A stretch of 64,000 nucleotides of DNA, from the IMG/VR virus record IMGVR_UViG_3300042471_000812. One strand, 5' to 3'. Shown piece by piece: positions 136-64,000 of this stretch. The position numbers and the translations under genes are program-made. Origin of the DNA: an uncultured virus (IMG/VR IMGVR_UViG_3300042471_000812). Taxonomy: Duplodnaviria; Heunggongvirae; Uroviricota; Caudoviricetes. Position 1 is the first letter of the stretch, and each line of letters opens with the position of its first letter. Under the pieces are notes generated by a model. That model had not been told where the DNA came from. It did not search any database and saw nothing but the letters and a program-made list of their open reading frames with translations.

Positions 136-446
136 AGGTTTGATTTTACTTTTTCCCAGTAGTTAAGGGTTGATTCTTTAAGGTGTCCTTTCGGCCCGCC
201 ATTCCATTTCCGGGCAATAACCTCAGCGCTTTTATATCCGCTAACTTTTACCCACTTAGCAAAGGCTTCCTTCGACTTATCGCAATCGAGCCTATCCTCT
301 AAGGTAAACTGTATGCCAATGTTGTTGAAGTGTTGCACCATTGTAGGGCGGATTTGCAAGCACCCTTCCGCATCGCCATTCCGCGCCGAAGGGTTACCCC
401 CACTTTCTACCATAACGATAGCAGCAATTAAAACTAAAATATTCAT
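132..446 (-). CDS. Small lytic transglycosylase / lysozyme-fold protein with hydrophobic N-terminus
   Basis: IVMVESGGN (catalytic Glu), GCLQIRP, ARKWNGG motifs typical of SLT-like enzymes. Confidence 0.75.
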   Translation of the reverse strand: MNILVLIAAIVMVESGGNPSARNGDAEGCLQIRPTMVQHFNNIGIQFTLEDRLDCDKSKEAFAKWVKVSGYKSAEVIARKWNGGPKGHLKESTLNYWEKVKSNL

Positions 447-480
447 CTTTTGTCGTATTTAATGTAAAGGAAAGGACAAT

Positions 481-936
481 TTATGTAATATCCAAAAGAT
501 ATTTACCTTTTAACGTTTCTTCACATTTAAGCTCCATATACCTATCTGTAATTTCCATAGCATTATCCAAAGAAGAAGAAAAGAAAGCGCAATATCCCTT
601 AGAGCGTAAAAGCTCAATAGTCTTGAACTGCTCCTCCAAGTGGTTTACCTTAATGATTAACGGCCCTCTACGCTTAACCTCAGTTTGCATTTTAAGAGTA
701 CCATCTTTCTTTAAGGGGGAATCCTTCTTTAGCTCTATGTATAGGCCATGATAACTACCTTTAGGCTCAGAGATAAACACGTCGGGGTGGGTATGCGCTG
801 AACGTACTTCCTTTAACGCTACCGCCTGGCCCATAGTTACCCTCACGCCACTACTCTCGGAGGTGAATACTACGTTGGGGTATTTCTCTTTTAGGTAGTG
901 GGCGAAGGCTTTATGGATATTTTTCTCGGTACTCAC
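481..936 (-). CDS. VRR-NUC / PD-(D/E)XK nuclease (resolvase-like)
   Basis: HPDVFI...GLYIELK...Q...LRSKGY motif pattern. Confidence 0.75.
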   Translation of the reverse strand: MSTEKNIHKAFAHYLKEKYPNVVFTSESSGVRVTMGQAVALKEVRSAHTHPDVFISEPKGSYHGLYIELKKDSPLKKDGTLKMQTEVKRRGPLIIKVNHLEEQFKTIELLRSKGYCAFFSSSLDNAMEITDRYMELKCEETLKGKYLLDIT

Positions 937-1049
937 TTCTTAACTACTAGTATAAAGATTTGTGTTTTACATTCTTTGCATTTATACACCTTCTCAGGTG
1001 TTCTTTCGGGCTTTATTAACGCCCCAGAGCATATTGGGCAGTGTTTCAT
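933..1049 (-). CDS. 38-aa zinc-ribbon protein (not in the ORF track)
   Basis: MKHCPICSGALIKPERTPEKVYKCKECKTQIFILVVKK; two CxxC motifs; 4-nt overlaps with both neighbours. Confidence 0.65.
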   Translation of the reverse strand: MKHCPICSGALIKPERTPEKVYKCKECKTQIFILVVKK

Positions 1050-1891
1050 AACAATCCGTTCTTTTTAGATTTAATTGGTCGAGAGCCAAACTCATTACGA
1101 TACCTTTCATAAACGCCTCGCAAGGTAATGTTTATTTCCTTTCCGTCAAACTTTCTACCTTCAAACCTCCCCGCAAGTAATCTATCTGCAATATTCTGCT
1201 CCACGCCCATTCTATTCAAGATACAGCATATCTTAAAAACGTATAGGTTTCTCTGCCCAGGCCGAAAGGTTATGCCCGTATTCTGCACTCCCTTCTCAGC
1301 TATCCTTAACGCATCATCTATACCCCTTACCTCCATAGGGTTGAAGTAGATAGGCTTCTCCTCAGGCATGATGGGTGGCGTGTAGGTAGGTGCTTCTAGG
1401 TTTAGGTATGCTTCGGGGTCATAGGACAAGTTACACTGCTTGTTTACAGGCTTTCCGGCCTTGTCGGAAAGGCCGAAGGCAAACTCTCTATCAATACACT
1501 CCCATGCCCACTTGTGATGGTAGTTGTCCTTTGGGATAGCTGTTCTAAAGCCAACTTTAACTCCTCCCCTTGGGGAACGGAACAAAAATAAAACGTATGT
1601 TGTGTCAAGGTAGGATAGTACCCTTTCGGCGCGTTGTTTTCCATCAATGTCTAAGTGTATAATTCCAGAATGTTTAACTAAGTTCTCAGCCTTCTTTCCC
1701 CCAGAAAATACCCCAGAGGGGAAAAAGGCCGGAAGCATCATCTTCGCAGCATCAGCCTCTTCCTTTTTCATCTTCCTAATTGCTCCAATCCTATCCCTCA
1801 TGGCATCGCTTTTAATATGCCCTATGATAGTCTTGATATGCACAGGCTTACCCTCTAACTGGTAATTGTCTGGGAGAACGGTGCAAATCAT
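1046..1891 (-). CDS. BT4734/VirE-N-like primase (PrimPol) with PriCT-like C-terminus
   Basis: LPAFFPSGVF, IHLDID, FRSPRGGVK, LSYDPEAY, PGQRN motifs. Confidence 0.75.
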   Translation of the reverse strand: MICTVLPDNYQLEGKPVHIKTIIGHIKSDAMRDRIGAIRKMKKEEADAAKMMLPAFFPSGVFSGGKKAENLVKHSGIIHLDIDGKQRAERVLSYLDTTYVLFLFRSPRGGVKVGFRTAIPKDNYHHKWAWECIDREFAFGLSDKAGKPVNKQCNLSYDPEAYLNLEAPTYTPPIMPEEKPIYFNPMEVRGIDDALRIAEKGVQNTGITFRPGQRNLYVFKICCILNRMGVEQNIADRLLAGRFEGRKFDGKEINITLRGVYERYRNEFGSRPIKSKKNGLL

Positions 1892-2586
1892 AATAGCTTG
1901 GGTTGAATTTGAGATATACGCTTTTCGGCGATTTTGACGTATTCGGAAGATAGTTCGCTGCCTATGTAGTTTCGGCCTTCTTTTATCGATGCCACCGCAG
2001 TTGTGCCGCTGCCCATAAATGGGTCATAAACCAACTTTGAATTAGGAAAGCAAAGTATAAGCCTTCTGCAAAGTTGAAGAGGGAACGCCCTTTTGTGTTC
2101 TTTGTCCGTGCCTTCTGCTGTGTCCTTTATTAAATCGTTTTGACCTATTTCGTTAAAAAAATCGGTGTCCTTTGTTTTTGAAAGCCAATATATCCTTTCG
2201 GTCATTGGGTAGAATCTGCACTTGTCAAAATTTTGCGACCCATTAAACCAAACTAATTCTTGTTTTACGATTAGGTTTGATTTTAAAATCCATTCGTACG
2301 GCGAAATTTGAATGCCATTTTTTATCCTGTTTTTGTGGTTGTATAGCAAACTGCCATTAGGCTTTAATACCCTGTAAATTTCGTTTAACACTTTTATTTG
2401 CCAATCTTGGTAATCATTTTCATTCATATCATCAACGTAAAGGTCGTATGCTGAAAATACATTGTTGCCTGTGTGGTGTTTTGCACCCAAGTTGTAAGGC
2501 GGCGAAGTAACTACCAAGTCCACGAAATTGTCAGGCATTCTTGCCATTGTGTCAAGGCAGTTCTCGTTGTGAATTTGATTTATCAT
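1888..2586 (-). CDS. DNA methyltransferase, beta class (N4-C/N6-A)
   Basis: TSPPY catalytic motif followed by DPFMGSGTT SAM-binding motif. Confidence 0.9.
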   Translation of the reverse strand: MINQIHNENCLDTMARMPDNFVDLVVTSPPYNLGAKHHTGNNVFSAYDLYVDDMNENDYQDWQIKVLNEIYRVLKPNGSLLYNHKNRIKNGIQISPYEWILKSNLIVKQELVWFNGSQNFDKCRFYPMTERIYWLSKTKDTDFFNEIGQNDLIKDTAEGTDKEHKRAFPLQLCRRLILCFPNSKLVYDPFMGSGTTAVASIKEGRNYIGSELSSEYVKIAEKRISQIQPKLL

Positions 2587-3632
2587 ATCATCACCGGCAT
2601 GAAGTACAAGGCAACATCGCCCTTAATAATTCCTACCACTCGGTTATCTGCTTGGAAGCCAATGGTAGCCTCGCCAATCATTCCCACAGCTTGAAGCAAC
2701 TGCTTGCCGTTTAACCCTACCTCATTCTCTTCAAGCAATCCCGGCATCTCTTCCTCATAGTTCTTGCCAAAGTCAATATCCTCAGAAGCTACCTTCCCCT
2801 TGCCAATTCTAATCAGGGAAGTAGCCTTCGGGCTAAAAGATATACACCTTTCCACAGCACCTAAAAACTCCGGCAGGGAAACCTCGCAAAGCACTGGGTA
2901 CTCTTTAATAATAACACTTTCAATAACCTCTAATTTCATTGGGTTGTCGGCAGTACGCATGAACAAAGAGGTAATGCCATCGCTAAACTGATGCCACTTC
3001 TCAGATGCACCAACATGAACTATGCCTTGCATACTAGCAACCACCGGGATATACCTTGGGGTTATGCCCACAATCCTCCCATCGTTTTCCTCTACCCTGT
3101 CTATGTACTTAACCTCTGAGAGATAAACACTATACGCGTTGGTGGCGTAGCAATACACCTTATCCCTTCGTGTTTGTAGGTTTACTTGGCACATTTGTGG
3201 CCGCAGATCATCATTGCCAGCGAACCTGCCAGCCAAGGAAAGGTGTGAAACAAGGTCTTTAACCGGCTCGGAAAATAGCGCTGGGGCTAAGGTATAGTTA
3301 AAGGATAGTGCCGAAGAACTGTCTTGGAGTGGCACTTGGCCTTTACCCCTGCCGCTTTTGAAGTATAGCACATCGGAGGCGGTAAGCCCTATGTCTTCGG
3401 CGCTTCCCTTATTTGCGATTGTTTCAAGGTCATAGTATGAAACATAAAAGTCATTGGGAATAGTGTCGGGGAAAGCCTCAATGTTAATCAATATCGCGGC
3501 ATCTAACCCAGCGCAAGATATTGTCCTGTCTGTTACCCTCAGCCAAGAAGTTGCTGGTGCGGTGCTTTTTGCTTTTGCTACTGGCGCTAAGGCTGCCAAT
3601 GCGTTTTTTAGTTGTGTTCTAGTTACTACCAT
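2583..3632 (-). CDS. DNA polymerase III beta sliding-clamp-like protein
   Basis: ~350 aa; DDLRPQM, ATNAYS, GLNGKQLL and C-terminal FMPV resemble DnaN. Confidence 0.7.
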   Translation of the reverse strand: MVVTRTQLKNALAALAPVAKAKSTAPATSWLRVTDRTISCAGLDAAILINIEAFPDTIPNDFYVSYYDLETIANKGSAEDIGLTASDVLYFKSGRGKGQVPLQDSSSALSFNYTLAPALFSEPVKDLVSHLSLAGRFAGNDDLRPQMCQVNLQTRRDKVYCYATNAYSVYLSEVKYIDRVEENDGRIVGITPRYIPVVASMQGIVHVGASEKWHQFSDGITSLFMRTADNPMKLEVIESVIIKEYPVLCEVSLPEFLGAVERCISFSPKATSLIRIGKGKVASEDIDFGKNYEEEMPGLLEENEVGLNGKQLLQAVGMIGEATIGFQADNRVVGIIKGDVALYFMPVMI

Positions 3633-5221
3633 TTTTTTATGTAATTGTATATTTCTTCAAAGATATTTTCCTTTTTCATATTATATGGCTTACCATCAAT
3701 AATTTTATCAATGTCCTCCATTTTGTTCCCCATTAAGTTCCAGATATGCTCGTCAATAGTATCTTTTACGAGTATGGTATAGATGTTCACTGGCTTGGTC
3801 TGGCCGGCACGATACACCCTACTCACTGCCTGGGCGAAGTCAGTAGGTACAAATGCCCAATTCAAGAAGAGTACATCGGAAGCGTTTTGAAGCTCAATAG
3901 AGGTCCCTGCTGCCCTCATATTGCCAATGAATACCTTGCACCTATTATCTCCGGTAAACCTTCTAATAATGTCTCCACGCTTCTCTGTGGCAACGCTCCC
4001 ATCGATATAGGCCGCCGAAGGGTATAACTTATACACCTCTTGCAAGGGGGCGGTATAACTACCAAACACCACAGCCTTTTTCCCAGCCTCAATGATATTG
4101 TCAATAGTTTCCTTAATGATTGGCACTTTGGCTAAAGATATGATTCGATTTAGGGAATGGATATTGTTTTCAAGCTGCTGCCTAGTTCTAACCTCTTCCT
4201 CGCAGATTCTTTTAATTTCAGCCTCGTACTGTTCTAGCCACTGGCCATCGCCCTTCACATTGTAAAGCACATAGTTTTTCTTTGGCATATCCCAGCAATC
4301 TTCCAGCCGATACCTTACCATAAAGTTTGCCATTTCGCGTCTAAGCTGGGGGATATTCTTTGCCCCTTTCACTTTAAAGCCATCTTTTTCCAAGAAATTA
4401 AGGTCAAACTTCAACTTGTTGGAGCCTAAAGGGTGGCCGGCAAGTTTAAGGTAAGCAAAGAAATCATCTGCCCTATTGGTGTTGGGTGTGCCAGAGGCAA
4501 AGGTAATATGGGCATCAGAGCCTTTAAGGATAGCCTTCACTGCCTTAAACCTTTGGGTTTTGGTACTCTTAATCCGTTGGCACTCGTCTAGGATAATGTG
4601 CTTTATGCCCTTGCTTCTAAGGTAATCAACACTCCTATGCAATAGGTCATAGTTGATAATGATAAACTTTTCGTTTAGGGCTTGGATAAAGTGGCGGCGC
4701 TGGGAATACACTACGGTAAACTCAAAGGAGTTAAATCCCCACTGCTCACTCAGGGAGGTTACCCAGTTGTCTTTGGCACTGGCCTCACAAACTATTAAAG
4801 TTGGGTAGAGGTTTTTGTACTTAGACTTCATGATGGTGGTAATGGTTTTGCCGGTGCCTTGGTCTAGGGCTGCTAGGGTGTGCTTGTTGGTTACGGCAAA
4901 CATTAGGGTGTCTATTTGGTGGTGGCGTAGCTTCCTGCCGTTGAGGGGGAATAGGGAGTGTACCTTGGTGTCAAACATTTTGTAGAGTTTGTTGTATGCT
5001 ACCTTTAGCTTTTCGGCGATTATGACGCCTTGGGGAGACTTCCAATCTATGCCTCTATCATCAAGGAGATTCTTTACCGCCTCTTTGCGGAGCGCCGAAA
5101 GGTTACCCTTCCAATAGGCTTTTCCCCCCACCACAACCTTTGTCATACCATACAGCTCTGCATAATACTCTCCCTCCCTATACTCTAGATATAGGTTCCC
5201 ATTCTCCTTTAAGTGCATCAT
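3626..5221 (-). CDS. SNF2-family helicase
   Basis: DQGTGKT (Walker A), ILDECQ, SGTP, QAVSRVYRAGQ. Confidence 0.9.
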   Translation of the reverse strand: MMHLKENGNLYLEYREGEYYAELYGMTKVVVGGKAYWKGNLSALRKEAVKNLLDDRGIDWKSPQGVIIAEKLKVAYNKLYKMFDTKVHSLFPLNGRKLRHHQIDTLMFAVTNKHTLAALDQGTGKTITTIMKSKYKNLYPTLIVCEASAKDNWVTSLSEQWGFNSFEFTVVYSQRRHFIQALNEKFIIINYDLLHRSVDYLRSKGIKHIILDECQRIKSTKTQRFKAVKAILKGSDAHITFASGTPNTNRADDFFAYLKLAGHPLGSNKLKFDLNFLEKDGFKVKGAKNIPQLRREMANFMVRYRLEDCWDMPKKNYVLYNVKGDGQWLEQYEAEIKRICEEEVRTRQQLENNIHSLNRIISLAKVPIIKETIDNIIEAGKKAVVFGSYTAPLQEVYKLYPSAAYIDGSVATEKRGDIIRRFTGDNRCKVFIGNMRAAGTSIELQNASDVLFLNWAFVPTDFAQAVSRVYRAGQTKPVNIYTILVKDTIDEHIWNLMGNKMEDIDKIIDGKPYNMKKENIFEEIYNYIKKW

Positions 5222-5679
5222 AGATTCTCTTTCAGGAAGGCGTCAAAATGCTTGTAGGATTCAAAAACATTGGCGAGTTTCTTGCTAAGTTCTTTTGCAG
5301 TCCATTTCTTTTCCAGCATAGTATCAATAGCATCTTTGAATACAGCATACATAAGGTCGGAAGCCTCGGAAGAGCCATCTGCCAACCACCTGTCCCCTTC
5401 ACGCACAAACACTAAGTCAATCCCTCTGCAATACACCTCAGCGAAGCTAGAATTGTCTGTATCTACAATCACATCGCCATACGTTTCAATCGTGCCATAG
5501 CCATCGAAATTAACATATCCGGCAGAGGTAACAATCAGGCAGTCTTTACTTCCCCTTACGAGGGTGTCAAAGTCGTGCTGGTTGTGGGGGGTGGCAGAGT
5601 AAGAAACCTTGCCCATTGCGGTGTAAACGTACTCATCATCTCGATAGTCGCTTAACTTGTTGATTACAATTTTTATCAT
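5218..5679 (-). CDS. Hypothetical protein
   Basis: ORF translationally coupled within the operon. Confidence 0.6.
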   Translation of the reverse strand: MIKIVINKLSDYRDDEYVYTAMGKVSYSATPHNQHDFDTLVRGSKDCLIVTSAGYVNFDGYGTIETYGDVIVDTDNSSFAEVYCRGIDLVFVREGDRWLADGSSEASDLMYAVFKDAIDTMLEKKWTAKELSKKLANVFESYKHFDAFLKENL

Positions 5680-5682
5680 GGT

Positions 5683-6933: not shown

Positions 6934-6938
6934 GGTTT

Positions 6939-7196
6939 TTATTGTTTAGGTTGTATGATTACTCCTTGTGGATATGATAATTCACTTTCATTCACTCCTA
7001 TTGGCATATTACCCCAACTTTCTTCAACAGGTAGTATTGTTGCTGAGGATAGGATTTCTTTTAAAGTAGATATTCTTCCTTCTAATGAACCTAATGTATG
7101 ACTTGGTTTCATTAAATGGATATTTATTCCTTCAAGTTCAGCTATCTTAGCTTCAATCTCTTGTTTACCCTCTTGGGTTAAATAAATGCCTATCAT
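6939..7196 (-). CDS. Hypothetical protein
   Basis: Coupled small ORF in an AT-rich block. Confidence 0.6.
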   Translation of the reverse strand: MIGIYLTQEGKQEIEAKIAELEGINIHLMKPSHTLGSLEGRISTLKEILSSATILPVEESWGNMPIGVNESELSYPQGVIIQPKQ

Positions 7197-7399
7197 GGTT
7201 TATTGGTTAAAGGTTTCGTTGTACTATCGTTCACCGCTGCTGCAATTGTTTGTAATATCCAAAATTCTCCGTGTTTAAAAGCCTCATTACTCTGCTCCTT
7301 CTCCATTTCTTTGGCTTGATAAAAATCAACTGCTGAAAGTTTACCATTTTCATTTAGTTGCACTTCCAACCATTCTACTGCTGTTTGCTTTGGTGTCAT
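7193..7399 (-). CDS. Small 'QTAVEWL...AKEMEKEQ' family phage protein
   Basis: Paralogous to 7396-7641 and 34505-34720. Confidence 0.7.
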   Translation of the reverse strand: MTPKQTAVEWLEVQLNENGKLSAVDFYQAKEMEKEQSNEAFKHGEFWILQTIAAAVNDSTTKPLTNKP

Positions 7400-7641: not shown

Positions 7642-7644
7642 AAG

Positions 7645-8392: not shown

Positions 8393-8410
8393 GGTTTTGT
8401 GTATTAAGGG

Positions 8411-8677: not shown

Positions 8678-8688
8678 GGTGTTTGGTA

Positions 8689-59100: not shown

Positions 59101-59618
59101 TTGACAGGGAGGTGTTTAATTATATTTCTGATGCTCAAATGATTAAGGGGATAAAGGATCAAGGCATAAAAGATATTCCTGAGAACTTAGATGACCTTAA
59201 TAAAGTTATCAATAAAGAGCAAACTCGTTTGTCGTTGAGACTTTTAGAAGAGTTTAAACCAAACTTTGTTTTCAAGCATCCGGCGTTAAAGAGTTATGCG
59301 CAGAGTGAGGATTCTTATGTTGGTTTAAACGCCGAAATGATTAACAAAATTGCTAAAGAGTATGACAGTTCTAGGAATAGGAGGTCATATCTTATTGCGT
59401 TGAAGTTTGTTGCTGGTGATGATTTTAAGAATATCGTTCAACAAATTGGGGCGCACGAAAGGGACTTGTCTGTTGTAGAAGGTATTACAGAAACTACGAG
59501 TGCAACTAAGTACAAGCGACTTTATCTTCGTCCTGATAATAGAAGCTCAAAGCCAATATCCTCCGAGTCTGCAATAAACAATTTGATACTGCTAAAATAT
59601 TTATTGACAAATGAGTAA
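50178..59618 (+). CDS. Giant polyvalent virion protein with ART-like and C5-cytosine MTase domains
   Basis: LYRG/FSAFST/EIEVLV at ~53860-54065; FFSGAG, SPVC, ENV, QNRER, RRLMGLP, LGNGV at ~54700-55600; LPD38-like PFLNAMIQG near the C-terminus. Confidence 0.8.
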   Translation: MSKEILKGIFEENIAPVREDITFEGWVDKIRDNEEYKVGLFENYVQPSMPEATFEEFNSNAFGSLGKVEAPLAGAQSEESFSPTESVSSEFEVGPPAGGTPPGVEPKGAPVAEAAALVGEVGSEGEPTIIGQELDPYTIVEEDDRNFFERLFGEERYRRVTERAVETIPALTRLFGKAAAKDVQEEINDLGRAMEADPEFVIKASQNGLFTTNNLATYLSQEAAGDKKGAEEINMFLEKGATGKTTQFERFKTLYAPIEKERNEAIQKELLSNRDYVALRGKIDAEFNSQRVGVDEKYDFKALMGEEFKVGEKELLGKYESATLALPMQLETKASELKFDYQTKVNNGQMGVNEANEGLKRDLDAYGAELQKQSDEALGEYNSGVSALAERVQKGVKDKPEFKAYMDELNDLRNGVVESFSGDYQKIQQAVFNNIAPKYNSKIESAITNSMKGETPLLNKSGVKGNIDKILGNRGWDYLPFDQKKAALDTMFGTALSKLKRSGVQINDGVVAGLRAEFDDAFMDRAYFTKKGTPSLFMVKTRAIEEAERLDEMLKEREAKTGTKTYTSGIYGSEFGVGGMGYDDTDVQELRLAREKLQEIIEMPETMSDNEWSNFWNGLTSGKVVDYLPFVSGLKNLSGTLALYRAVGKDTESARYLKNAEALNSTYKNMYEVNNMASDWYRAGRGTAESLPFMMEFAATAGIGSGVRIATEKVAVKLLGKQAETMVGKSFKVLAGTLVSSLAQTTLNPQRYVDETLKRMTPQMTIAFSPEGDDLVAMLDSSDAEGGFEAALKGFGVTASEYFSEGLGFAGARAMKALGSKMLQNEFLKKAYVGWYMSKFNLDTPTAFKKIAEMGGWNGFLMEFGEELVNIPLTNLITGDAKVMEGIIKDGEFDTENLADIARTLLPISLAGGSVSLGGLAINKIAPEGVTVTYRDINNLPTTETINKGVWDAVTEVMKSPSKVRDFIANELPKLKVDGKGRELVTSMLERSAIEFDRGVVGVGTRQVAEATSPLEVTFEPIPETGGAPKVEIIAKRRQKLNKDRTKLVPTGGFDYFAKVGDREVKLSDAEYKAYKDSGVLPESVSAVEATPKVEGEAVTPEAVSPEVPALRDVESTAEALEGVNNKNPQEIIDASKKIDKVEYIEEGEAREIIESYTHYKSGNSKSPATRWAGWFQSINAANKKFIVEDIQNDPKLRNAMLSLFFDVYKSELNFKGSFDDFLNTEITLYRGVTLADKKGVGQEGFSAFSTTKNRVSAYADEQAIGKGQVKEIKIKPIDTYGAVNYIGGGEIEVLVPTEFKNETIRQDFIRLLELNIGLFSEEQTELLEKYYDKEDYISGLAFIKSIISSKPKQLSEAYHKAKEDGSNPELVSAVEELLGKPTQTPEVAEGQPAEVISPEVAEVLSTEDTTRIALESLEVLPEGIESAEEGARIYHEAIGKEERTEAEDAVVMAVEDAVIGGAVVPEVETPEAVETAETVTPEEVSTEGVTPEVPGVVEAAEGQRQPSRVATFFSGAGTMEASLPNAQSVMAVEFNPAYVEAYNKAFGVEYEAKDVRDINPEEVIASKPDIFHASPVCKNFSAAKNKRTVLKSDMESADAVARVIREAQPPIVTIENVPDYQGTVPFETIVKALEDAGYTFDVGVYNSADFGGVQNRERLLIRAVKSGELPPIQEKTAPGDWYSAIEDLIEGAPDSKFESRSESENWEMTRIKDMVRKGKLDATKPIITMGGSASSGVAAAANAGGPAPTLLSTSRSVPRIILPDGTVKRVTPEMMRRLMGLPESYPIPSNPKIAKEVLGNGVDGAFTRALIDPLLNRAETQPSAEAQPSAEGLTSKEKAEQANKRAEEIAEKIRKNLRGRGGITGITPFSRAKRLAEVDRATLALIKDYIYQKVLAGAYTFKDFVEDMKENSKRIFGVQIEVANSDKSIFHSAQSRFEINDAFAQEILDLKDDFLFSIAAMSGRMNMNFQEFISSNSALVNGFVNRAESIYGLDDQAMMLVQEMYQDALRAAANRAESYTTLEDVKKFHETKEELLGLERDMERARINEEIKRRRNWLSRNFDKFQRAFITPVKNFNRAFGYRAGKFSDYRTSQERDVYSARKYRMGASTKAGNWYNAIHNKIYGGLSWFEKVELDKYLIYRRIVEVSEVRNQRAAEYKKLEAELAAGVTPVRKQEIKEAMAELEKAGMGEVKSGSIMVDGKKEEYTVALAEAFVNDINARNDALAIKIRNRAEMYTEANNELLKMRLDSGEISQEAYDSMQKRDYVRRLFVDLSNTTLDEANYSPVSKEIKAIKEGSEDAILEMDTQALLQINAQITFDSVAKNNFIKKVVGWSEAKQQDYLDKALEKFKDARARTERYLRSSPRPLTQDEIDRFIKEQTLFIPLSNDAKVPSGFTAQKYFVDGVEKRVAVRNDIANIFQTPSGRGINENSFAIKAISALLLTPVIKASAVFVNPAFAIGNFALDVIHASMVTRDLYKSFTFNLGTILAKATGYTAENIYRKAVKYGASLFGRTARDSKFERLVKDYFEHGGGMSGLSNPSSRMYSDKLSSSALRRSFGDAMDGIIAVLDVINSLQSGSELITRVIVYEAALDKNIAAYREKNGVDPVGEDLALMKMSAAASSADLIDFREGAEATKAFDQTLLPFLNAMIQGAKAEIDFASKNPLLAAARLAEFGGMALGAALYNANSGDEDEKEGIVGYNGITDYIKSNFFVMMMPWTKKNERGEIVRPFISIKLPAALKATNILVSGMVADQGAENTIGQMASALEGGYVPEIGSVSPTAQIFMALNYNRDAFRKGAPVYRGRADVLLTERFNAGETKAIYRDLFGAMYDLINEDGENEGVLGFDEAGPAQWQAAFEKAISSNNPYYLGITSTYATISSLYGKDNKKEVDALMDEKFAALNAFGSRVYREPNSSVQQKNMKDRKQVDFLRDQIGSWQKKNDDAIEFAAKTIRDINKLEGNSKNVKIDLFFDREVFNYISDAQMIKGIKDQGIKDIPENLDDLNKVINKEQTRLSLRLLEEFKPNFVFKHPALKSYAQSEDSYVGLNAEMINKIAKEYDSSRNRRSYLIALKFVAGDDFKNIVQQIGAHERDLSVVEGITETTSATKYKRLYLRPDNRSSKPISSESAINNLILLKYLLTNE

Positions 59619-60015
59619 CTACACCAAACCGAAATTAAGGGAGAGCATTAAGGATAGGGTAATGGCTTCTAGCAAGGGTGGCAAGCCTGGCCAGTGGTCA
59701 GCGCGGAAGGCACAGCTTTTATCTCAGGAGTATGAGAAGAAGGGTGGGGGGTATAGTGGCGGCAAGAGTGGTGCCCAGAAGAGTTTAAGTAAGTGGACTA
59801 AGGAGGAGTGGGGTACTAAGAGTGGCAAGCCTTCTACGCAGGGGCCGAAGGCTACTGGTGAGCGGTATTTACCAAAGGCAGCGCGTGAGGCGTTATCGCC
59901 GAAGGAGTATGCTGCCACTTCTGCCAAGAAGCGTAGTGATACTGCCAAGGGCAAGCAGTTTAGTAGTCAGCCCAAGAAAATAGCAACCAAAACAAGTAAA
60001 TATCGTGGAAAGTAA
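59611..60015 (+). CDS. Basic phage protein (DUF5872-like)
   Basis: GGKPGQWSARKAQ, SLSKWTKEEW, ERYLPK. Confidence 0.75.
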   Translation: MSNYTKPKLRESIKDRVMASSKGGKPGQWSARKAQLLSQEYEKKGGGYSGGKSGAQKSLSKWTKEEWGTKSGKPSTQGPKATGERYLPKAAREALSPKEYAATSAKKRSDTAKGKQFSSQPKKIATKTSKYRGK

Positions 60016-60178
60016 GTTCAAGAAATTGCAAAAGAGTGTAGCCAAGGGCTACGCCGAAAAGGGTAGTAAGAAAGCTATGGAGATTGGCGCTGCCGTTGCG
60101 TATAAGCAGGGTGTCAAGAAATATGGCAAGGAGGTTATGACTAAGAAATCCATTGCCGGAAAGAAGAAAAAAAAGTAG
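60005..60178 (+). CDS. Small Lys-rich protein (not in the ORF track)
   Basis: GTG start; ESKFKKLQKSVAKG...AGKKKKK*. Confidence 0.6.
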   Translation: MESKFKKLQKSVAKGYAEKGSKKAMEIGAAVAYKQGVKKYGKEVMTKKSIAGKKKKK

Positions 60179-60200
60179 TATCTTTGAAACAAAAATTGTT

Positions 60201-60299
60201 ATGAAAGCAACTACCAAGGGTGGTTCAACCACCAAAACAAAAGTTACCACTAGTGGTGGCTCTGGAAAGAAAGTAAAAGTAACCACTAAATCCTGTTAA
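60201..60299 (+). CDS. 32-aa Lys/Thr-rich peptide (not in the ORF track)
   Basis: MKATTKGGSTTKTKVTTSGGSGKKVKVTTKSC*, preceded by TATCTTTG at 60179. Confidence 0.55.
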   Translation: MKATTKGGSTTKTKVTTSGGSGKKVKVTTKSC

Positions 60300-60301
60300 T
60301 T

Positions 60302-60457
60302 ATGTACGGAATGAAGAAAGCTGGCGGTAGCAAAACCGCTAAAATGGGCAAAATGGCTGGCAAAATGGCTGGCATGGTTGCTGGTGCTAAGGCTGGCGCT
60401 AAGGCTGGCAAGGCTATGGGCAAAATGGCTGCTGCCAAGGTGTCTAAGAAAAAATGA
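60302..60457 (+). CDS. 51-aa Lys/Ala/Gly/Met-rich peptide (not in the ORF track)
   Basis: MYGMKKAGGSKTAKMGKMAGK...KVSKKK*; ATGA-coupled to the next gene. Confidence 0.6.
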   Translation: MYGMKKAGGSKTAKMGKMAGKMAGMVAGAKAGAKAGKAMGKMAAAKVSKKK

Positions 60458-60759
60458 AGAAAGACTCTCGAATAGAGCGTGCAGGTGTGGCTGGGTTTAA
60501 TAAACCTAAGGCCACACCTTCCCACCCTACTAAGAGCCATATTGTAGTGGCTAAGGAGGGTGATAAGGTAAAGACTTTGCGCTTTGGTCAACAGAATGTC
60601 AAGACCAACCAAACTGTCGGGCAGAGGGAGGCTTTCAAGTCTCGCCATGCCAAGAACATTGCGAAGGGCAAAATGAGTCCTGCGTATTGGGCAGATAAGG
60701 TAAAGTGGTCTAGTTCCAAGACAAAATCTCCATCTAAGAAATGGGTTAAGGGAAGCTAA
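60454..60759 (+). CDS. Basic phage protein
   Basis: GFNKPK, KTLRFGQ, FKSRH, SPAYWA motifs. Confidence 0.75.
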   Translation: MKKDSRIERAGVAGFNKPKATPSHPTKSHIVVAKEGDKVKTLRFGQQNVKTNQTVGQREAFKSRHAKNIAKGKMSPAYWADKVKWSSSKTKSPSKKWVKGS

Positions 60760-61298
60760 TGTTACAGATAAATTTCACCGCCAATCTTGCAGAGAATTGC
60801 AAGGACATCAACTTGGTAGATACTACTGGGGATTATGATGCTGTAAACAATCCGGAAGGGTGGGGGGCGCCGAATGCGTCCACCTCTAACATTTCCCAGT
60901 CAAACATATACATAACCCCTCCAAGTGGCATAAGCTACATCATAGGCGCCACAGCGTTACTAAACGATGAGCAGACTATCTTAGGCACTTCAATAGGCTA
61001 TACTACCAAGTTGCCTGATGGCTATTACGACATAAGGTATGAGGTCCAGGGCACGTTTGGTGGGAATAGTGGTGTGTTGAGTAGTGAGCGTAAGAACGTG
61101 TTGTTTTACGGCAATGTATTCTGTTGCATTGAGAAGATGAATGTTGAGGGGGATTGTTTGTGTGAAACCTCTGAGCTTGAAGATATGCTGCTGTTGTTTG
61201 AGGCTATGAAGGCCGCCGATGAGTGTTGCGATATTGTTTGTGCCAAAAAGATACTTAATGAATTAACCAGGCGTTGTGCCAAAAAATGTAATTGCTGA
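60759..61298 (+). CDS. Cys-rich virion protein
   Basis: DTTG.Y...NP.GWG, LPDGYY, C-terminal Cys cluster. Confidence 0.6.
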   Translation: MLQINFTANLAENCKDINLVDTTGDYDAVNNPEGWGAPNASTSNISQSNIYITPPSGISYIIGATALLNDEQTILGTSIGYTTKLPDGYYDIRYEVQGTFGGNSGVLSSERKNVLFYGNVFCCIEKMNVEGDCLCETSELEDMLLLFEAMKAADECCDIVCAKKILNELTRRCAKKCNC

Positions 61299-62101
61299 TG
61301 AGCTGTAATTGTCAAGATACTCCTTGTTCGTGTGTAGATGGGTTGAACTCGTTTACCACTTTAGCGGCTAGTTTCACTCAGCCAGGTGTTGGGTTAAATG
61401 TTACCGTTTCCACCACTAACCTCGGCCAGTTGAATAACCGGTGGGTGGGTGTTAATCAGATTTTATATGTTGTGGGTGGTGGTTACTACCAAGTGGTTAG
61501 TATCCCTAGCTTAGTATCTATCCAGCTTAAAAACTTGGGATATACTGGCAATGCTGCCCCTGCCGCTACGGTTGCTTCTGGGGGCAATGTGTCCCCAGGT
61601 GGGTTAGCTGGGGTTACCGGCCCTTCTGGGGTTAATGGCACTGTATTGTTGTTTAACGACCACACTCAGCAAACTGCGACTTCTAGTGCCACGTTATACA
61701 CTTACTCAATGCCCCAAGGCACGTTAGCGCCGAATGGATCACAGCTAGAGTTAGAATTTTACATAAACACTTCTGTCAGCCCAAACACAAGGAATATGCG
61801 TATTGGGATTGGGGCCACTACCTTTGTTTTCCAGAACTTAGGATTATCTTCAAGCACTTTCGTTCAGAGGGGCTATGCTACGGTTACGAGGCTCAGTGCA
61901 ACAACTGTTGCAATTTCTGTGAAGTCTGAGACATCTACTGTTTCCGGGAACTTAATCACTACGGAAAACTACTACACTACTTCTGCTGCTGTTACGAACT
62001 TGGATAGTGGTGGTGCCATTGCTATTACTTTGCAGAGTGTTATCTCTACTACGGGCACAATAACTGCCGAATACTTTACAATTAAAAGAAACTTGATATG
62101 A
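61298..62101 (+). CDS. Tail fibre/collar-associated protein
   Basis: Cys-rich N-terminus, short GxxGxxG segment, beta-rich C-terminus. Confidence 0.6.
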   Translation: MSCNCQDTPCSCVDGLNSFTTLAASFTQPGVGLNVTVSTTNLGQLNNRWVGVNQILYVVGGGYYQVVSIPSLVSIQLKNLGYTGNAAPAATVASGGNVSPGGLAGVTGPSGVNGTVLLFNDHTQQTATSSATLYTYSMPQGTLAPNGSQLELEFYINTSVSPNTRNMRIGIGATTFVFQNLGLSSSTFVQRGYATVTRLSATTVAISVKSETSTVSGNLITTENYYTTSAAVTNLDSGGAIAITLQSVISTTGTITAEYFTIKRNLI

Positions 62102-63753
62102 TAGTCCAGTCCTACAAAACGATTGCAATAGGTGTAGCCAATTTAACTTTGGAGGGGGCTTCTTCTGCTTCCACGTTAAACTTGGATGAGAATGACCTTT
62201 TGAAGTATTATGTAATGACTACTGCTGGGGTAAGTTTATCTTCTCCGCTAACGATTGCGTATGGTGGGGCAGGTACTCCTCCAACGGGAATGGTTGGAAT
62301 GTTTTTCTTCCCTGGGGGTGTTACCTTGGGGGCAAATACTTTCACGATATTTGGGTATGCGTTGAGTGCTACTGAGGCGTTGAAGGGCGCTGTGATTGCG
62401 GTGGTGTATAATGGTTCTGCTTTTAGTGTTTCTGTGTTACCGGCGGCAAATGCTACTGAGTGGATAGAAACTGGAGATATTGCTGCCTTGGCGGTTACTA
62501 ATGCCAAGATAGCGACTGGTATTGATGGAAGCAAGGTTTCGGTTGGTAGTATGCCTGCTGACAGGTTAGCTGCTGCGAGCATTACAAATGCTCAGTTGGC
62601 CACCATGCCGACCTTGACTATTAAGGGCAACAATACGGGGGGCGCTTCCACTCCCATTGACCTTACGGCAGCTCAGGTATGGGTGATGCTTGGGGGTCAA
62701 ATCTTTACTGCTGCTGCCGGCACGAGTAGTTTTGTGCAAAATGGTAGTGGTTCTACGGCTGCTGGCAATTATGCTGGGGCTGTTGGGCAGAGTAATGTTG
62801 CCAGTGGTCTTAATTCCTTTGCTCAGGGCAACGGAAACACCACGAGTGGGGCTAGGGCTTCGGCTAGTGGCAATGCCAACACAGCGAGTGGTTCTAACTC
62901 AAAGGCTGTGGGGGATAGCAACGTTGCTTCTGGGGTTAATTCTTTCGCTGGGGGTATAAGCTCTACGGCGAGTGGCACTCAGTCATTTGCGTATGGGGAG
63001 GGTGTTACTGCTAGTGGCAATAATTCTATTGCTTTAGGTGAAGATGTAACGGCTAGCCGGGAGGGTGAATTTGCCCGAAACAATGGGAACACTGTAACGC
63101 TCCGCAAGCATGCTATTAACTTATTGCAATCTGCCACTACGAATGCTACTCCAGCAATAATGTTTTTGGGGGATAGTGGTTTATCGTTTAACGTGCCCAC
63201 TAATTCTTCTGTTGCGTTTAGCGCTTTAGTAAACGCCGTTCAGGATAATACTGGTGGCGGTGGCGCCCCTGGAGATAGTGCAAGTTGGCATTTGACTGGC
63301 TTGGTTAAGAATGTGGGGGGTACTACTTCCCTTGTGAATGGTATTAACTTCGACACTACTTTGTCGCGTACTATTCGCGAAGCGGGAACGGCTCAGGCTG
63401 GTGCTGCTGGCACTATTACCTTGCAGGCTGGTGCTACTTCCATTACCAATGCGTTTGAGCGCTCCTACATTTACATCATTAGCGGTACCGGTTCTGGGCA
63501 GAATAGGGAGATTACTGCGTACAATGGCACTACGAAGGTTGCTACGGTATCTCCCAACTGGAGTGTTAACCCTGACAATACTTCTGTGTATCGTATTGTT
63601 ACCCAAGAGCATTATCAGTCCACCACTATTGGTTGGGACGTGAATGCTGTGGCAAACAATGCTACTGACACGTTGGATATAACGGTAACTGGTGAGGGGA
63701 GCAAGAACATTGTTTGGTATTGCCGGTTAGAAACCATTGAATTAGGGTTCTAA
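62098..63753 (+). CDS. Tail fibre with YadA-head-like 14-residue repeats
   Basis: Repeated ASG.NS.A.G.... Confidence 0.7.
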   Translation: MIVQSYKTIAIGVANLTLEGASSASTLNLDENDLLKYYVMTTAGVSLSSPLTIAYGGAGTPPTGMVGMFFFPGGVTLGANTFTIFGYALSATEALKGAVIAVVYNGSAFSVSVLPAANATEWIETGDIAALAVTNAKIATGIDGSKVSVGSMPADRLAAASITNAQLATMPTLTIKGNNTGGASTPIDLTAAQVWVMLGGQIFTAAAGTSSFVQNGSGSTAAGNYAGAVGQSNVASGLNSFAQGNGNTTSGARASASGNANTASGSNSKAVGDSNVASGVNSFAGGISSTASGTQSFAYGEGVTASGNNSIALGEDVTASREGEFARNNGNTVTLRKHAINLLQSATTNATPAIMFLGDSGLSFNVPTNSSVAFSALVNAVQDNTGGGGAPGDSASWHLTGLVKNVGGTTSLVNGINFDTTLSRTIREAGTAQAGAAGTITLQAGATSITNAFERSYIYIISGTGSGQNREITAYNGTTKVATVSPNWSVNPDNTSVYRIVTQEHYQSTTIGWDVNAVANNATDTLDITVTGEGSKNIVWYCRLETIELGF

Positions 63754-64000
63754 TGGAGCCATACAAGTATGTGTGTAAATACTTAGATGCTTTGCACTCA
63801 GGGAACTGGGAGAAGGCTGAGGAGTATTTGGCATGTGCTAGGAAGGGCATTGTTGTTGTTATTCCCGACCCGAATGTTATCGGCCCCAATGTTAGTTTGT
63901 ATGTAAATGTTTGCAGTTATTTAGATGCTTTGCATTCTGGGAAGTGGGAACTCGCCGAAAAGTATCTTGCTTGTGCGAGGGCTTCATATTTACTTTCAGG
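63753..64000 (+). CDS. Partial protein with an internal duplication
   Basis: VCKYLDALHSGNWEKAEEYLACAR and VCSYLDALHSGKWELAEKYLACAR; runs off the window. Confidence 0.65.
   Translation, partial: MEPYKYVCKYLDALHSGNWEKAEEYLACARKGIVVVIPDPNVIGPNVSLYVNVCSYLDALHSGKWELAEKYLACARASYLLS

What the first reader, a model, noticed from the sequence alone, without database searches (positions are those of the whole stretch)
384..63959. Genome-wide over-represented heptamer CGCCGAA
Seen: my hand count gives about 52 CGCCGAA on the plus strand (e.g. 384, 5093, 18474, 26110, 36560, 41812, 48001, 55631, 60868, 63953) and about 24 TTCGGCG (e.g. 1625, 5012, 22931, 25902, 29439, 47574). It is often extended to GGCGCCGAA or CGCGCCGAA and occurs both inside and between genes. 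A rough base-composition estimate (assuming ~42% GC) predicts about 2 per strand, so enrichment is roughly 15-fold. I found none inside the AT-rich, probably recent inserts (TnpB element, 6.94-8.9k block, MTase 35677-36417, ART insert). Inference: a cis-acting site maintained by a phage or host process, comparable to Chi, HIP1 or DNA-uptake sequences, but not one I recognise.
Basis: partly seen in the sequence, partly recalled or inferred. Interest (0 to 1): 0.85.

Follow-up and report, generated by a model that had tools for sequence, protein, structure and literature searches.

The report
Phage genome studded with one heptamer
A freshwater phage carries about twenty times more copies of the seven-letter word CGCCGAA than chance allows, kept in place by selection on the DNA itself rather than on the proteins, which marks it as a still unidentified recognition site for some DNA-handling protein.

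Summary
It is the top 7-mer (z=35). Shuffling synonymous codons while keeping every protein and each gene's codon usage leaves 17±3, so codon pairs do not explain it. Sites lie in all six frames and between genes. They arise by point substitution, not insertion, and 65 of 288 positions that could encode the word synonymously do so.

Lineages 82-90% identical keep the sites more often than ordinary 7-mers (14/14 vs 52%; 15/23 vs 34%), with turnover. Relatives at 42-58% protein identity have 1 copy in 44.5 kb.

The full site is bipartite: TTCCGR, 11-12 bp, (G)CGCCGAA, RRG. The upstream half is present at 28/76 sites against 1.4% of random positions.

Strand bias is regional: 37:6 in 36-64 kb and 15:18 elsewhere.

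No enrichment was found in 702 sampled Bacteroidota genomes, including those with the closest TnpB.

The best reading (about 0.35) is a selected recognition site for a lineage-specific, probably phage-encoded, DNA-binding or DNA-processing protein. The main rival (about 0.25) is a Chi-like host signal, as in Chi-rich lambdoid phages. The function was not shown, and the host was not identified.

The parts
384..390 (+). CGCCGAA core
1625..1631 (-). CGCCGAA core
1924..1930 (-). core with upstream CCGA half-site at -16
3396..3402 (-). CGCCGAA core
4013..4019 (+). CGCCGAA core
5012..5018 (-). CGCCGAA core
5093..5099 (+). CGCCGAA core
6115..6121 (-). core with upstream half-site at -16
6259..6265 (+). 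core with upstream half-site at -15
9063..9069 (-). CGCCGAA core
10842..10848 (+). CGCCGAA core
11355..11361 (+). CGCCGAA core, intergenic
15286..15292 (-). core with upstream half-site at -15
15806..15812 (+). CGCCGAA core
16628..16634 (-). core with upstream half-site at -15
17987..17993 (+). core, intergenic, inside a GC hairpin (GCGCCG/CGGCGC)
18185..18191 (-). CGCCGAA core
18474..18480 (+). core, intergenic, inside a GC hairpin
18817..18823 (-). CGCCGAA core; absent in L010
19821..19827 (+). core, intergenic, inside a GC hairpin (MFE -16.9)
20370..20376 (+). core with upstream half-site at -15
21495..21501 (+). CGCCGAA core, intergenic
22931..22937 (-). CGCCGAA core
24863..24869 (-). CGCCGAA core
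25484..25490 (+). core with upstream half-site at -15
25902..25908 (-). CGCCGAA core
26110..26116 (+). core with upstream half-site; absent in L010
26948..26954 (-). CGCCGAA core
27859..27865 (-). CGCCGAA core
28891..28897 (+). core on the conserved Ala-Glu of the portal protein
29439..29445 (-). core with upstream half-site; portal RQ/KK changed to RR
33310..33316 (-). CGCCGAA core; absent in L010
35421..35427 (-). core with upstream half-site at -15
36560..36566 (+). core, first of a pair 18 nt apart
36578..36584 (+). core, second of the pair
37054..37060 (+). core with upstream half-site at -15
37854..37860 (+). core; in L010 the site sits 15 nt downstream instead
37966..37972 (+). CGCCGAA core
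39484..39490 (+). core with upstream half-site at -15
40565..40571 (+). CGCCGAA core, just upstream of the thioredoxin gene
40751..40757 (+). CGCCGAA core
41812..41818 (+). CGCCGAA core
42159..42165 (-). CGCCGAA core
42660..42666 (+). core with upstream half-site at -15
43134..43140 (-). CGCCGAA core; absent in L010
43434..43440 (+). core with upstream half-site at -15
45164..45170 (+). CGCCGAA core
47574..47580 (-). CGCCGAA core
47717..47723 (+). CGCCGAA core
48001..48007 (+). CGCCGAA core
48514..48520 (+). core, first of a pair 17 nt apart
48531..48537 (+). core, second of the pair, intergenic
50121..50127 (+). CGCCGAA core
50864..50870 (+). core with upstream half-site at -15
52154..52160 (+). 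core with upstream half-site at -15
53260..53266 (+). core with upstream half-site at -15
53432..53438 (-). core with upstream half-site at -15
54341..54347 (+). CGCCGAA core
54605..54611 (+). core with upstream half-site at -16
54677..54683 (+). CGCCGAA core
54920..54926 (-). CGCCGAA core
55631..55637 (+). core, first of three copies 18 nt apart (coding tandem repeat)
55649..55655 (+). core, second of three
55667..55673 (+). core, third of three
55715..55721 (+). CGCCGAA core
56138..56144 (+). core with upstream half-site (N-R-A-E protein context)
56225..56231 (+). core (N-R-A-E protein context)
56876..56882 (+). core (N-R-A-E protein context)
57527..57533 (-). CGCCGAA core
58079..58085 (+). 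CGCCGAA core
59330..59336 (+). CGCCGAA core
59897..59903 (+). CGCCGAA core
60052..60058 (+). CGCCGAA core
60868..60874 (+). core with upstream half-site at -15
61728..61734 (+). CGCCGAA core
63953..63959 (+). CGCCGAA core
36001..64000 (+). region of strong strand bias: 37 sites on +, 6 on -; 37% of + synonymous-potential sites realised against 8% of - ones
1..36000 (.). region without strand bias: 15 sites on +, 18 on -; about 20% of potential sites realised in either orientation

Best explanation
Shown: CGCCGAA is the strong core of a longer, asymmetric, bipartite site. The consensus is TTCCGR, then 11-12 bp, then (G)CGCCGAA, then RRG and a weak TAA. The site is written into both strands of this phage chromosome about once per 840 bp, through genes in every frame and between genes. 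It is made by point substitutions and is kept by selection on the DNA.

Inferred: it is the recognition site of a sequence-specific protein that contacts double-stranded DNA over about 28 bp, through two direct CCGA-type half-sites 17-18 bp apart. The protein most likely belongs to this phage lineage rather than to the host. It uses the sites to act on phage DNA all along its length, as a 'this is my chromosome' mark. The purpose could be loading or priming in replication or recombination, site-specific nicking, or protection. In the 36-64 kb late-gene region the action depends on orientation.

Which protein binds the site and what it does there are not shown.
For: 1. The enrichment is real and sharp.
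- 76 copies against 3.7-4.9 expected.
- It is the top 7-mer, z=35.
- One-mismatch neighbours are near expectation, apart from NGCCGAA at 1.5-2.6x.

2. Coding does not explain it.
- Synonymous shuffles give 17 +/- 3.
- Sites occur in six frame/orientation classes plus 7 intergenic positions.
- 65 of 288 positions that could hold the word synonymously do hold it.

3. Sites are made in place.
- Portal sites sit on an Ala-Glu that is conserved in all 8 homologues, and on an RQ->RR change, with no insertion.
- At 26478 the window has CGT AGG CGA TAC and L010 has CGC CGA AGG TAT. Both encode RRRY.
- At 27595, RGQ in the window corresponds to RAE with a recoded Arg in L010.
- At 37854/37869 the site moves 15 nt between two Ala-Glu pairs.

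4. Sites are under purifying selection.
- 14 of 14 sites are kept in L007, against 52% of all 7-mers.
- 15 of 23 are kept in L010, against 34%.

5. The footprint is bipartite.
- CSGR lies at -15/-16 in 28 of 76 sites.
- The same element is at 41 of 3000 random positions, 4 of 40 DGCCGAA sites and 1 of 51 other CGCCG sites.
- It is repeated in the sister lineage L010 at 17 of 29 sites.
- Natural tandem pairs are 17-18 nt apart.

6. The word is lineage-specific.
- Density is 0.8-1.45/kb in loci with 95-100% portal identity.
- Relatives with 42-58% protein identity and the same GC have 1 copy in 44.5 kb.
- The 26-kb element G406 shares 98%-identical modules, yet has only 2 copies in its other ~21 kb.

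7. No host-like enrichment was found.
- 401 Bacteroidota genomes.
- The five with the highest ratios have observed about equal to expected under an order-2 Markov model.
- The TnpB-donor-like genome G002 has 45 against 40 expected.
- 301 Flavobacteriales genomes.
Against: - No binding protein was identified, and no gene was shown to co-occur with the motif.
- The one lineage-specific gene I could test (36541-37917) is a compact family-A DNA polymerase. Phages carrying distant homologues of it have 0-3 copies of the word.
- The true host is unknown. The samples cover only a few per cent of Bacteroidota species, so a host-encoded reader is not excluded.
- 48 of 76 sites lack a recognisable upstream half-site.
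- Flank conservation around conserved sites is not clearly above baseline (14 and 13 sites).
- Spacing is random (CV 0.94), so nothing points to a spacing requirement.
- The regional strand bias (37:6 against 15:18) is not predicted by simple binding and remains unexplained.
Confidence: 0.35

Rival explanations
1. Host Chi-like signal. The word, or its complement TTCGGCG, is what the host's RecBCD/AddAB-type helicase-nuclease recognises. The phage has accumulated it to stop degradation of its linear or rolling-circle DNA and to recruit host recombination, as Chi-rich lambdoid phages do.
For: - It is an asymmetric 7-mer of Chi-like size.
- Its density (1.2/kb) is the same order as in Chi-rich phages. 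LLS has 23 sites, 20 in the active orientation and clustered towards one end. MD8 has 32, all in one orientation. Phages lacking Rec modules are Chi-enriched (PMC12315714, passages read; PMC3784561, abstract only).
- The strand bias is 37:6 over 28 kb.
- The word is lineage-specific, as expected if relatives infect hosts with other Chi words.
- No single-strand annealing protein or Gam-type inhibitor was recognised in the Pfam and PHROG scans of the ORFs I submitted.
- The same heptamer was once proposed as Chi-like in Ralstonia solanacearum, from a correlation with transformation frequency (PMC2013936, passages read). That is a weak, high-GC precedent.
Against: - No sampled Bacteroidota genome shows the word enriched.
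- Both orientations are strongly enriched over 36 kb, 15:18 against about 1 expected each.
- The ~28-bp bipartite context is not a known feature of Chi recognition, which reads 5-8 nt of single strand (my knowledge).
- The phage does encode nuclease and recombination functions: a PD-(D/E)XK nuclease, an SbcC/SbcD-like pair and resolvase-like proteins.
- The genome map is circularly permuted between assemblies, so the bias could not be tied to a physical end.
Confidence: 0.25
2. By-product or target of DNA modification and repair. The word is the target of one of the phage's or host's DNA methyltransferases, and a linked biased repair (very-short-patch type) or selection for methylatable sites has driven its accumulation, as proposed for HIP1 in cyanobacteria (my knowledge).
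For: - The phage encodes at least four methyltransferase domains: N6_N4 at 1888-2586 and 35677-36417, D12 at 37917-38606, and a C5 domain inside the 3146-aa protein.
- Asymmetric 6-7-mers are typical of type IIG, type III and BREX methylation motifs (my knowledge).
- Multi-base clustered changes create the sites.
Against: - One-mismatch neighbours, including the C->T variants TGCCGAA (10 vs 7.1) and CGCTGAA (11 vs 6.0), are not depleted.
- No Vsr-type gene was found in the Pfam scans.
- Two of the methyltransferase genes (35677-36417, 37917-38606) are missing from the equally motif-rich L010 lineage.
- Phages normally avoid modification and restriction targets rather than accumulate them. This phage does avoid GATC, GTSAC and CGWCG.
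- The upstream half-site is not explained.
Confidence: 0.12
3. Transcript-level signal. The word acts in RNA, affecting stability, processing or translation of late messages.
For: Sense orientation predominates: 47 sense against 18 antisense realised sites from equal opportunity (148 against 140). In 36-64 kb the figures are 37% against 8%.
Against: - Antisense and intergenic sites are themselves many-fold enriched.
- In 1-36 kb the two orientations are equally used, 18-24%.
- There is no excess folding (-9.5 against -8.9 kcal/mol, sd 4.5).
- There is no Rfam match.
Confidence: 0.04
4. Artefact of coding. Ala-Glu and Pro-Lys/Asn codon pairs, or repeated protein motifs, generate the word.
For: - 31 sites are xxC GCC GAA (Ala-Glu) and 13 are xCG CCG AAx.
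- A few sites come from protein repeats in the 3146-aa gene: three copies 18 nt apart at 55631-55673, and N-R-A-E at 55631, 56138, 56225 and 56876.
Against: - Shuffles that keep the proteins and per-gene codon usage give 17 +/- 3 against 76.
- There are 23 antisense and 7 intergenic sites.
- Relatives encoding the same conserved Ala-Glu lack the word.
Confidence: 0.02
5. Small dispersed repeat. A miniature mobile element or hairpin repeat has inserted many times.
For: Three intergenic copies (17987, 18474, 19821) lie in similar GC hairpins.
Against: - There is no insertion relative to homologues.
- Flanks are not conserved beyond the weak half-site.
- There is no excess hairpin energy overall.
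- Sites differ from relatives by substitutions only.
Confidence: 0.02

Closest known systems
Chi-rich phages (E. coli lambdoid phage LLS, P. aeruginosa phage MD8; PMC12315714, passages read)
   Same: A short asymmetric word is enriched tens of times in a 40-60 kb phage genome. It lies inside genes and has a marked orientation bias in part of the genome.
   Different: In those phages the word is the host's proven or presumed Chi, almost all copies share one orientation, and copies cluster near one end. Here no host with the word is known, both orientations are strongly enriched over 36 kb, there are 76 sites rather than 20-32, and the site has a second half 17-18 bp upstream.
DNA uptake sequences (Neisseria DUS, Pasteurellaceae USS) and their presence in phages of those hosts (my knowledge)
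   Same: The density is about one per kb on both strands and inside genes. Sites are created by point substitution, and a core is flanked by weaker context.
   Different: DUS and USS are properties of the host genome and depend on competence. No sampled candidate host carries this word in excess, and the sequence is unrelated.
HIP1 (GCGATCGC) of cyanobacteria (my knowledge)
   Same: It is a genome-wide iterated word written through coding sequence.
   Different: HIP1 is a palindrome, is host-wide and is linked to a methyltransferase. This word is asymmetric, is specific to one phage lineage, and its neighbours are not depleted.
Proposed Chi-like cGCCGAAc of Ralstonia solanacearum (PMC2013936, passages read)
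   Same: The heptamer is identical.
   Different: That is a 67%-GC bacterium in which the word is common anyway. The evidence is a rank correlation with transformation frequency, not an enzymatic test. There is no link to this 43%-GC freshwater phage, and the match is probably coincidence.

Membership tests
Chi (crossover hotspot instigator) sites | Short (5-8 nt) asymmetric word | tested here: met
   7-nt non-palindromic core with all seven positions fixed
Chi (crossover hotspot instigator) sites | Over-represented, with replichore skew, in the host chromosome | tested here: inconclusive
   Not enriched in 401 + 301 sampled Bacteroidota genomes or in genomes holding the closest TnpB; the true host is unknown
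Chi (crossover hotspot instigator) sites | Recognised by the host RecBCD/AddAB and attenuates its nuclease | not testable with these tools
   Needs the host enzyme and an in vitro or genetic assay
Chi (crossover hotspot instigator) sites | In Chi-rich phages: one active orientation relative to the open DNA end | tested here: inconclusive
   37:6 in 36-64 kb but 15:18 in 1-36 kb; physical ends unknown and the map is permuted between assemblies
DNA uptake sequences (DUS/USS) | Hundreds to thousands of copies in the competent host's genome | tested here: inconclusive
   No sampled genome has a phage-like density; host unknown
HIP1-type iterated palindromes | Palindromic word | tested here: not met
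   The reverse complement of CGCCGAA is TTCGGCG, a different word
HIP1-type / very-short-patch repair drive | Depletion of the one-step (C->T) neighbours of the word | tested here: not met
   TGCCGAA 10 vs 7.1 and CGCTGAA 11 vs 6.0; the neighbours sum to about expectation
Dispersed mini-repeats (REP/MITE-like) | Inserted unit with conserved flanks or hairpin | tested here: not met
   No insertion relative to homologues; flank information is low; folding energy equals that of random windows
Codon-pair / protein-repeat artefact | Enrichment disappears when proteins and codon usage are kept but codons are shuffled | tested here: not met
   17.0 +/- 2.9 against 76 observed
Known RNA families | Match to an Rfam model | tested here: not met
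   0 matches at gathering thresholds in the window

The most novel reading that the evidence does not exclude
The phage labels its own chromosome. A phage-encoded machine (a helicase-nuclease, primase, nickase or entry ratchet) reads a bipartite word that the host chromosome essentially lacks. It can therefore tell viral DNA from host DNA by sequence alone. This would be a viral counterpart of Chi or DUS, with the word and its reader evolving together within one phage lineage.
Probability: 0.2. Interest if true: 0.85.

Novelty: new variant of a known kind. Interest (0 to 1): 0.6.

Why it matters
Genome-wide iterated words such as Chi, DUS/USS, KOPS and HIP1 have each led to a DNA-handling machine. 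Here an uncultured, widespread lake phage has filled 22% of all positions that could encode one heptamer. It did so within a single lineage, and no sampled host shares the word. If the reader protein is phage-encoded, this would be a sequence-based self-mark in a virus. If it is the host's helicase-nuclease, the word would be a candidate Chi for a freshwater Bacteroidota host and a handle for host assignment of related phages from metagenomes. In either case the motif is a cheap and specific marker for this phage lineage.

Tried and rejected
- Codon and protein artefact: rejected.
- General hairpin or structured element: motif windows fold no better than random windows (-9.48 against -8.94 kcal/mol, sd 4.5). 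Only three intergenic copies lie in GC hairpins.
- Regular spacing: gaps fit a random scatter (CV 0.94; largest gap 3931 bp, P=0.5).
- Neighbour depletion expected from a repair drive: not seen.
- Host search via TnpB: the closest relatives (92% and 91%) are in Bacteroidota MAGs. Their genomes are not enriched.
- Host search by counting the word: none enriched in 401 genomes of the phylum and 301 Flavobacteriales.
- Link to CGNCG-free genomes: TnpB was not found in 5 of the CGNCG-free genomes.
- Phage collection: blastn of 7.9 kb gave no match. No whole genome is held for the window.
- IMG/VR relatives: portal and capsid searches returned only the window's own contig plus weak domain hits. The genome-contig scan with the portal found nothing.
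- Link between the motif and the lineage-specific 458-aa gene: the gene is a compact family-A polymerase. Loci of its distant homologues have 0-3 copies, so there is no association.
- GCCGAGG in G406 (15 copies, all on +): looks like an Ala-Glu-Gly/Ala codon effect on a one-strand genome, not a dialect of the motif.
- Flank conservation profile: too few sites (14 and 13) to show a footprint.
- Sequencing runs: 20 lake or freshwater runs hold the phage, but all as contigs, so ends, nicks and base modification could not be examined. I did not lay reads.
- Earlier scan notes: nothing on this genome, and one unrelated tandem-repeat note.
- Literature: the whole-word search for CGCCGAA/TTCGGCG returned one paper, on Ralstonia.

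Full report
**Observation.** The window holds 76 exact copies of CGCCGAA, 52 on the + strand and 24 on the - strand.
- Dinucleotide-preserving shuffles give 3.67 (sd 1.86, largest 9; 0 of 100 reach 76).
- An order-2 Markov model gives 4.2 and base composition gives 4.9.
- Under the order-2 model it is the most over-represented 7-mer by a wide margin (z=35).
- The core is sharp. CGCCGA occurs 82 times and 76 of these are followed by A. Among the 21 one-mismatch neighbours only NGCCGAA is mildly raised (10-16 against 6-7), and the rest are near expectation.
- GCGCCGAA occurs 38 times against 1.2 expected.

**What the DNA is.** The window is a podovirus-like phage genome of about 66 kb.
- Annotated genes include a P22-type portal (28301-30535), a crAss-type muzzle protein (43342-47862), a 3146-aa protein with a C5-methyltransferase domain (50178-59618), three further methyltransferase genes, an SNF2 helicase, two clamp-like proteins, a PD-(D/E)XK nuclease, SbcC/SbcD-like proteins, a serine recombinase and a TnpB element.
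- It is nearly identical to a 65,909-bp IMG/VR contig. That contig starts about 14 kb away on the map and carries 76 copies (49/27) against 7 for the reversed-word control. The map is therefore circular or permuted, and the window's ends are not physical ends.
- Twenty lake or freshwater metagenome runs hold at least half of its sampled words, 8 of them flagged as possible sources of this DNA. All are held as contigs.
- The TnpB protein is 92% and 91% identical to copies in two Bacteroidota MAGs. Together with the BT4734-like and crAss-type domains, this makes a Bacteroidota host likely but not proven.

**Coding does not explain the word.**
- With a crude ORF set, sites fall as: sense xxC GCC GAA 31, antisense xxT TCG GCG 15, sense xCG CCG AAx 13, three other classes 10, and intergenic 7.
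- I shuffled synonymous codons among positions of the same amino acid. This kept all proteins and covered 20,044 codons, 94% of the window. The shuffles leave 17.0 +/- 2.9 copies per gene set (largest 26 of 100) and 14.7 +/- 2.8 globally, including the fixed intergenic copies.
- I then counted every place where the proteins would allow the word by synonymous choice alone. There are 148 such places in sense and 140 in antisense. Of these, 47 (32%) and 18 (13%) actually carry it.
- A handful of sites do come from protein repeats in the giant gene: three copies 18 nt apart at 55631-55673, and four N-R-A-E contexts.

**How sites arise and persist.**
- In the portal gene one site sits on an Ala-Glu that is conserved in all 8 homologues. 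Another sits on RR where homologues have RQ or KK. There is no insertion.
- I compared the window with sister lineages from metagenome contigs. L007 is 88-90% identical at the nucleotide level and L010 about 82%. L007 keeps 14 of 14 alignable sites, against 52% of all 7-mers. L010 keeps 15 of 23, against 34%. L010 has 6 sites of its own and L007 has 2.
- The differences are clustered substitutions:
  - At 26478 the window reads CGT AGG CGA TAC and L010 reads CGC CGA AGG TAT. Both encode RRRY.
  - At 27595 the window encodes RGQ and L010 encodes RAE with the Arg codon recoded, and the upstream half-site differs as well.
  - At 37854/37869 the site sits on the first of two Ala-Glu pairs in the window and on the second in L010.
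- This pattern fits selection, or a directed process, acting on the DNA word and tolerant of where exactly the word lies.

**The site is longer than seven bases.**
- A position matrix of the 76 oriented sites shows G at -1 (38/76), R-R-G at +7..+9 (G at +9 in 48/76), a weak T-A-A at +11..+13, and a second element C-[C/G]-G-[A/G]-[A/T] at -15..-11.
- CSGR starts at -15 in 20 sites and at -16 in 12 sites, against 0.59 expected per offset. Some sites match at both offsets.
- As unique sites this is 28 of 76. The controls are 41 of 3000 random positions, 4 of 40 DGCCGAA sites and 1 of 51 other CGCCG sites. The element recurs in L010 (17 of 29), L011 (11 of 19), L008 (5 of 14) and L007 (7 of 25).
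- Read across sites, the upstream element is TTCCGR. It is a direct, weaker repeat of the CCGA of the core, 17-18 bp upstream. Natural tandem pairs of full cores have the same spacing (18, 18, 18 and 17 nt).
- Composite sites occur in several frames and between genes.
- Motif windows do not fold better than random windows (-9.48 against -8.94 kcal/mol, sd 4.5). There is no Rfam match.
- Three intergenic copies (17987, 18474, 19821) do lie in GC hairpins that look like terminators of the minus-strand genes.

**Distribution.**
- Spacing is indistinguishable from random (CV 0.94; largest gap 3931 bp, P=0.5).
- Strand use is regional. There are 15 + and 18 - sites in 1-36 kb, and 37 + and 6 - sites in 36-64 kb.
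- Synonymous opportunity is equal on the two strands (89 against 78 potential sites in 36-64 kb). The bias is therefore real: 37% against 8% realised there, compared with 18-24% for either orientation elsewhere.
- I could not relate this to genome ends, to GC skew (the word is C-rich yet sits on the G-rich strand), or to a simple replication model. It remains unexplained.
It does not hold for low-GC DNA in general (7 sites in 8.6 kb).

**Who has the word.**
- Loci with 95-100% portal identity carry 0.8-1.45 copies per kb.
- Eight loci of relatives with 42-58% protein identity, conserved gene order and the same GC (41-45%) carry 1 copy in 44.5 kb.
- A 26-kb element with terminal repeats (G406) shares modules at 96-100% protein identity (98% at the nucleotide level for the largest block). 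Six of its 8 copies are in that block and only 2 are in its other ~21 kb.
- Candidate hosts:
  - The four genomes with TnpB relatives have 0.05-0.16 copies per kb, similar to the reversed-word control.
  - A 383-kb sample of the closest one has 45 against 40 expected.
  - Among 401 evenly sampled Bacteroidota genomes the largest ratio to the control is 4.5. The five highest-ratio genomes show observed about equal to expected under an order-2 model (39/30, 27/23, 11/11.5, 32/35, 28/25).
  - Among 301 Flavobacteriales the 8-mer GCGCCGAA never exceeds 0.10 per kb, against 0.59 per kb in the phage.
- The word was therefore not found enriched in the genomes searched. These are a small sample, and the host is unknown.

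**Interpretation.**
- Shown: a DNA-level, bipartite, asymmetric site, selected within one phage lineage.
- Inferred: a ~28-bp footprint with two direct half-sites fits a protein that reads double-stranded DNA. The lineage specificity and the lack of enrichment in candidate hosts point to a phage-encoded reader. I put this at about 0.35.
- The chief rival is a host Chi-like word, at about 0.25.
  - For it: size, density and the 37:6 bias match the recently described Chi-rich phages. LLS has 23 sites, 20 of them oriented. MD8 has 32 of 32 oriented. Such phages lack their own recombination modules (PMC12315714, passages read).
  - Against it: both orientations are strongly enriched over 36 kb, and the upstream half-site is not expected for a single-strand word.
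- A modification-linked drive (about 0.12) is weakened by three findings. Neighbours are not depleted. No Vsr gene was found. Two methyltransferase genes are absent from the equally motif-rich L010 lineage.
- The identical heptamer was once proposed as Chi-like in Ralstonia (PMC2013936). I regard this as coincidence in a 67%-GC genome.

**A gene I examined as a candidate reader.** The only gene found to be specific to the motif-bearing lineages within the comparable region (36541-37917, absent between the capsid gene and the 38672 homologue in L016 and L019) has no Pfam, PHROG or PDB sequence match.
- Its family conserves TNxRLDTNFTNLP, DxxNSQ, RxxxKxxxFxxxF and KHDS.
- It folds with pLDDT 87.7.
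- Its best structural matches are KlenTaq, Klenow and T7 DNA polymerase (Foldseek E about 4e-6).
- It is therefore a compact family-A polymerase. Phages with distant homologues do not carry the word, so nothing ties it to the motif.

**Verdict.** The process behind it remains open, the host is unknown, and no experiment-grade evidence on function is available from these tools.

Noticed in passing
Genomes G116, G140, G316, G364 (loci L030-L046); also G416, G436, G442, G450, G451, G453, G460, G506, G662: Some Bacteroidota genomes of 43-44% GC contain no CGNCG at all. Samples of 40-179 kb have 0-2 copies against 103-737 expected, and whole genomes have 0 CGCCGAA against about 350-650 for the reversed-word control. 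CGNTG/CANCG is raised 1.3-1.44x. In the Flavobacteriales sample at least 9 further genomes have 0 GCGCCGAA against 51-126 control hits. Either this is a complete purge of a 5-base pattern (a restriction-type pressure) or a systematic assembly error at a modified site. It was not resolved. TnpB of the phage was not found in five of these genomes.
   Followed up: partly
window 36541-37917 (+): A 458-aa protein without any Pfam, PHROG or PDB-sequence match is a compact family-A DNA polymerase. It has an N-terminal helical/winged-helix-like part and lacks a recognisable exonuclease domain. The conserved motifs are TNxRLDTNFTNLP, DxxNSQ, RxxxKxxxFxxxF and KHDS. AF2 pLDDT is 87.7, and Foldseek matches KlenTaq, Klenow and T7 DNA polymerase at E about 4e-6. 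The search found 37 homologues in metagenomes.
   Followed up: yes
window 50178-59618 (+): A 3146-aa ORF in the tail/ejection-protein region carries a C5 cytosine DNA methyltransferase domain (residues 1510-1805, E 2.8e-30). It also has the highest density of the heptamer, 23 sites in 9.4 kb.
   Followed up: no
whole window: Several words are strongly avoided, as is typical of restriction pressure. GTGAC/GTCAC occurs 1 time against 70 expected, GATCT 4 against 85, GATCA 15 against 88, GGCCC 33 against 119, and CGACG/CGTCG 7 against 32.
   Followed up: no
window 13092-14207 (+): A TnpB (Cas12f-like TNB plus OrfB_IS605) gene lies on the opposite strand within the minus-strand early region, in a 36% GC segment. 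It is 92% identical to a copy in a Bacteroidota MAG.
   Followed up: partly
G406 (L118+L119; 26,097 bp with direct terminal repeats): A separate 26-kb element shares the 34.7-40.5 kb block at 98% nucleotide identity. It also shares the metallophosphatase gene (23715-24752, 97% aa) and a small gene (7193-7399, 96% aa) with the window, but nothing else. This suggests recent module exchange between two different elements, presumably in the same host.
   Followed up: partly
window 34300-40900 compared with L016, L019, L010: Between the capsid gene and the 40917 gene the window has about 6.5 kb that distant relatives lack, apart from a homologue of 38672-39520. The methyltransferase genes at 35677-36417 and 37917-38606 are absent from the L010 lineage too.
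   Followed up: partly
window 17969-17993, 18456-18480, 19803-19827: Three similar GC-rich hairpins (GCGCCGG ... CCGGCGC) lie between minus-strand genes, each ending in the heptamer. They are probably terminators or RNA-stabilising stems for the early transcripts.
   Followed up: partly
L015 (5.4 kb), L110 (13 kb), L111 (12 kb): Other phage contigs show their own one-strand octamers at about one per kb: GACCAAGC 7:0 (0.31 expected) in L015, CTCCATTA 11:1 (1.1 expected) in L110, and GGCCCTAA 5:0 (0.02 expected) in L111. The contigs are too short to judge, but each phage may carry its own iterated word.
   Followed up: no
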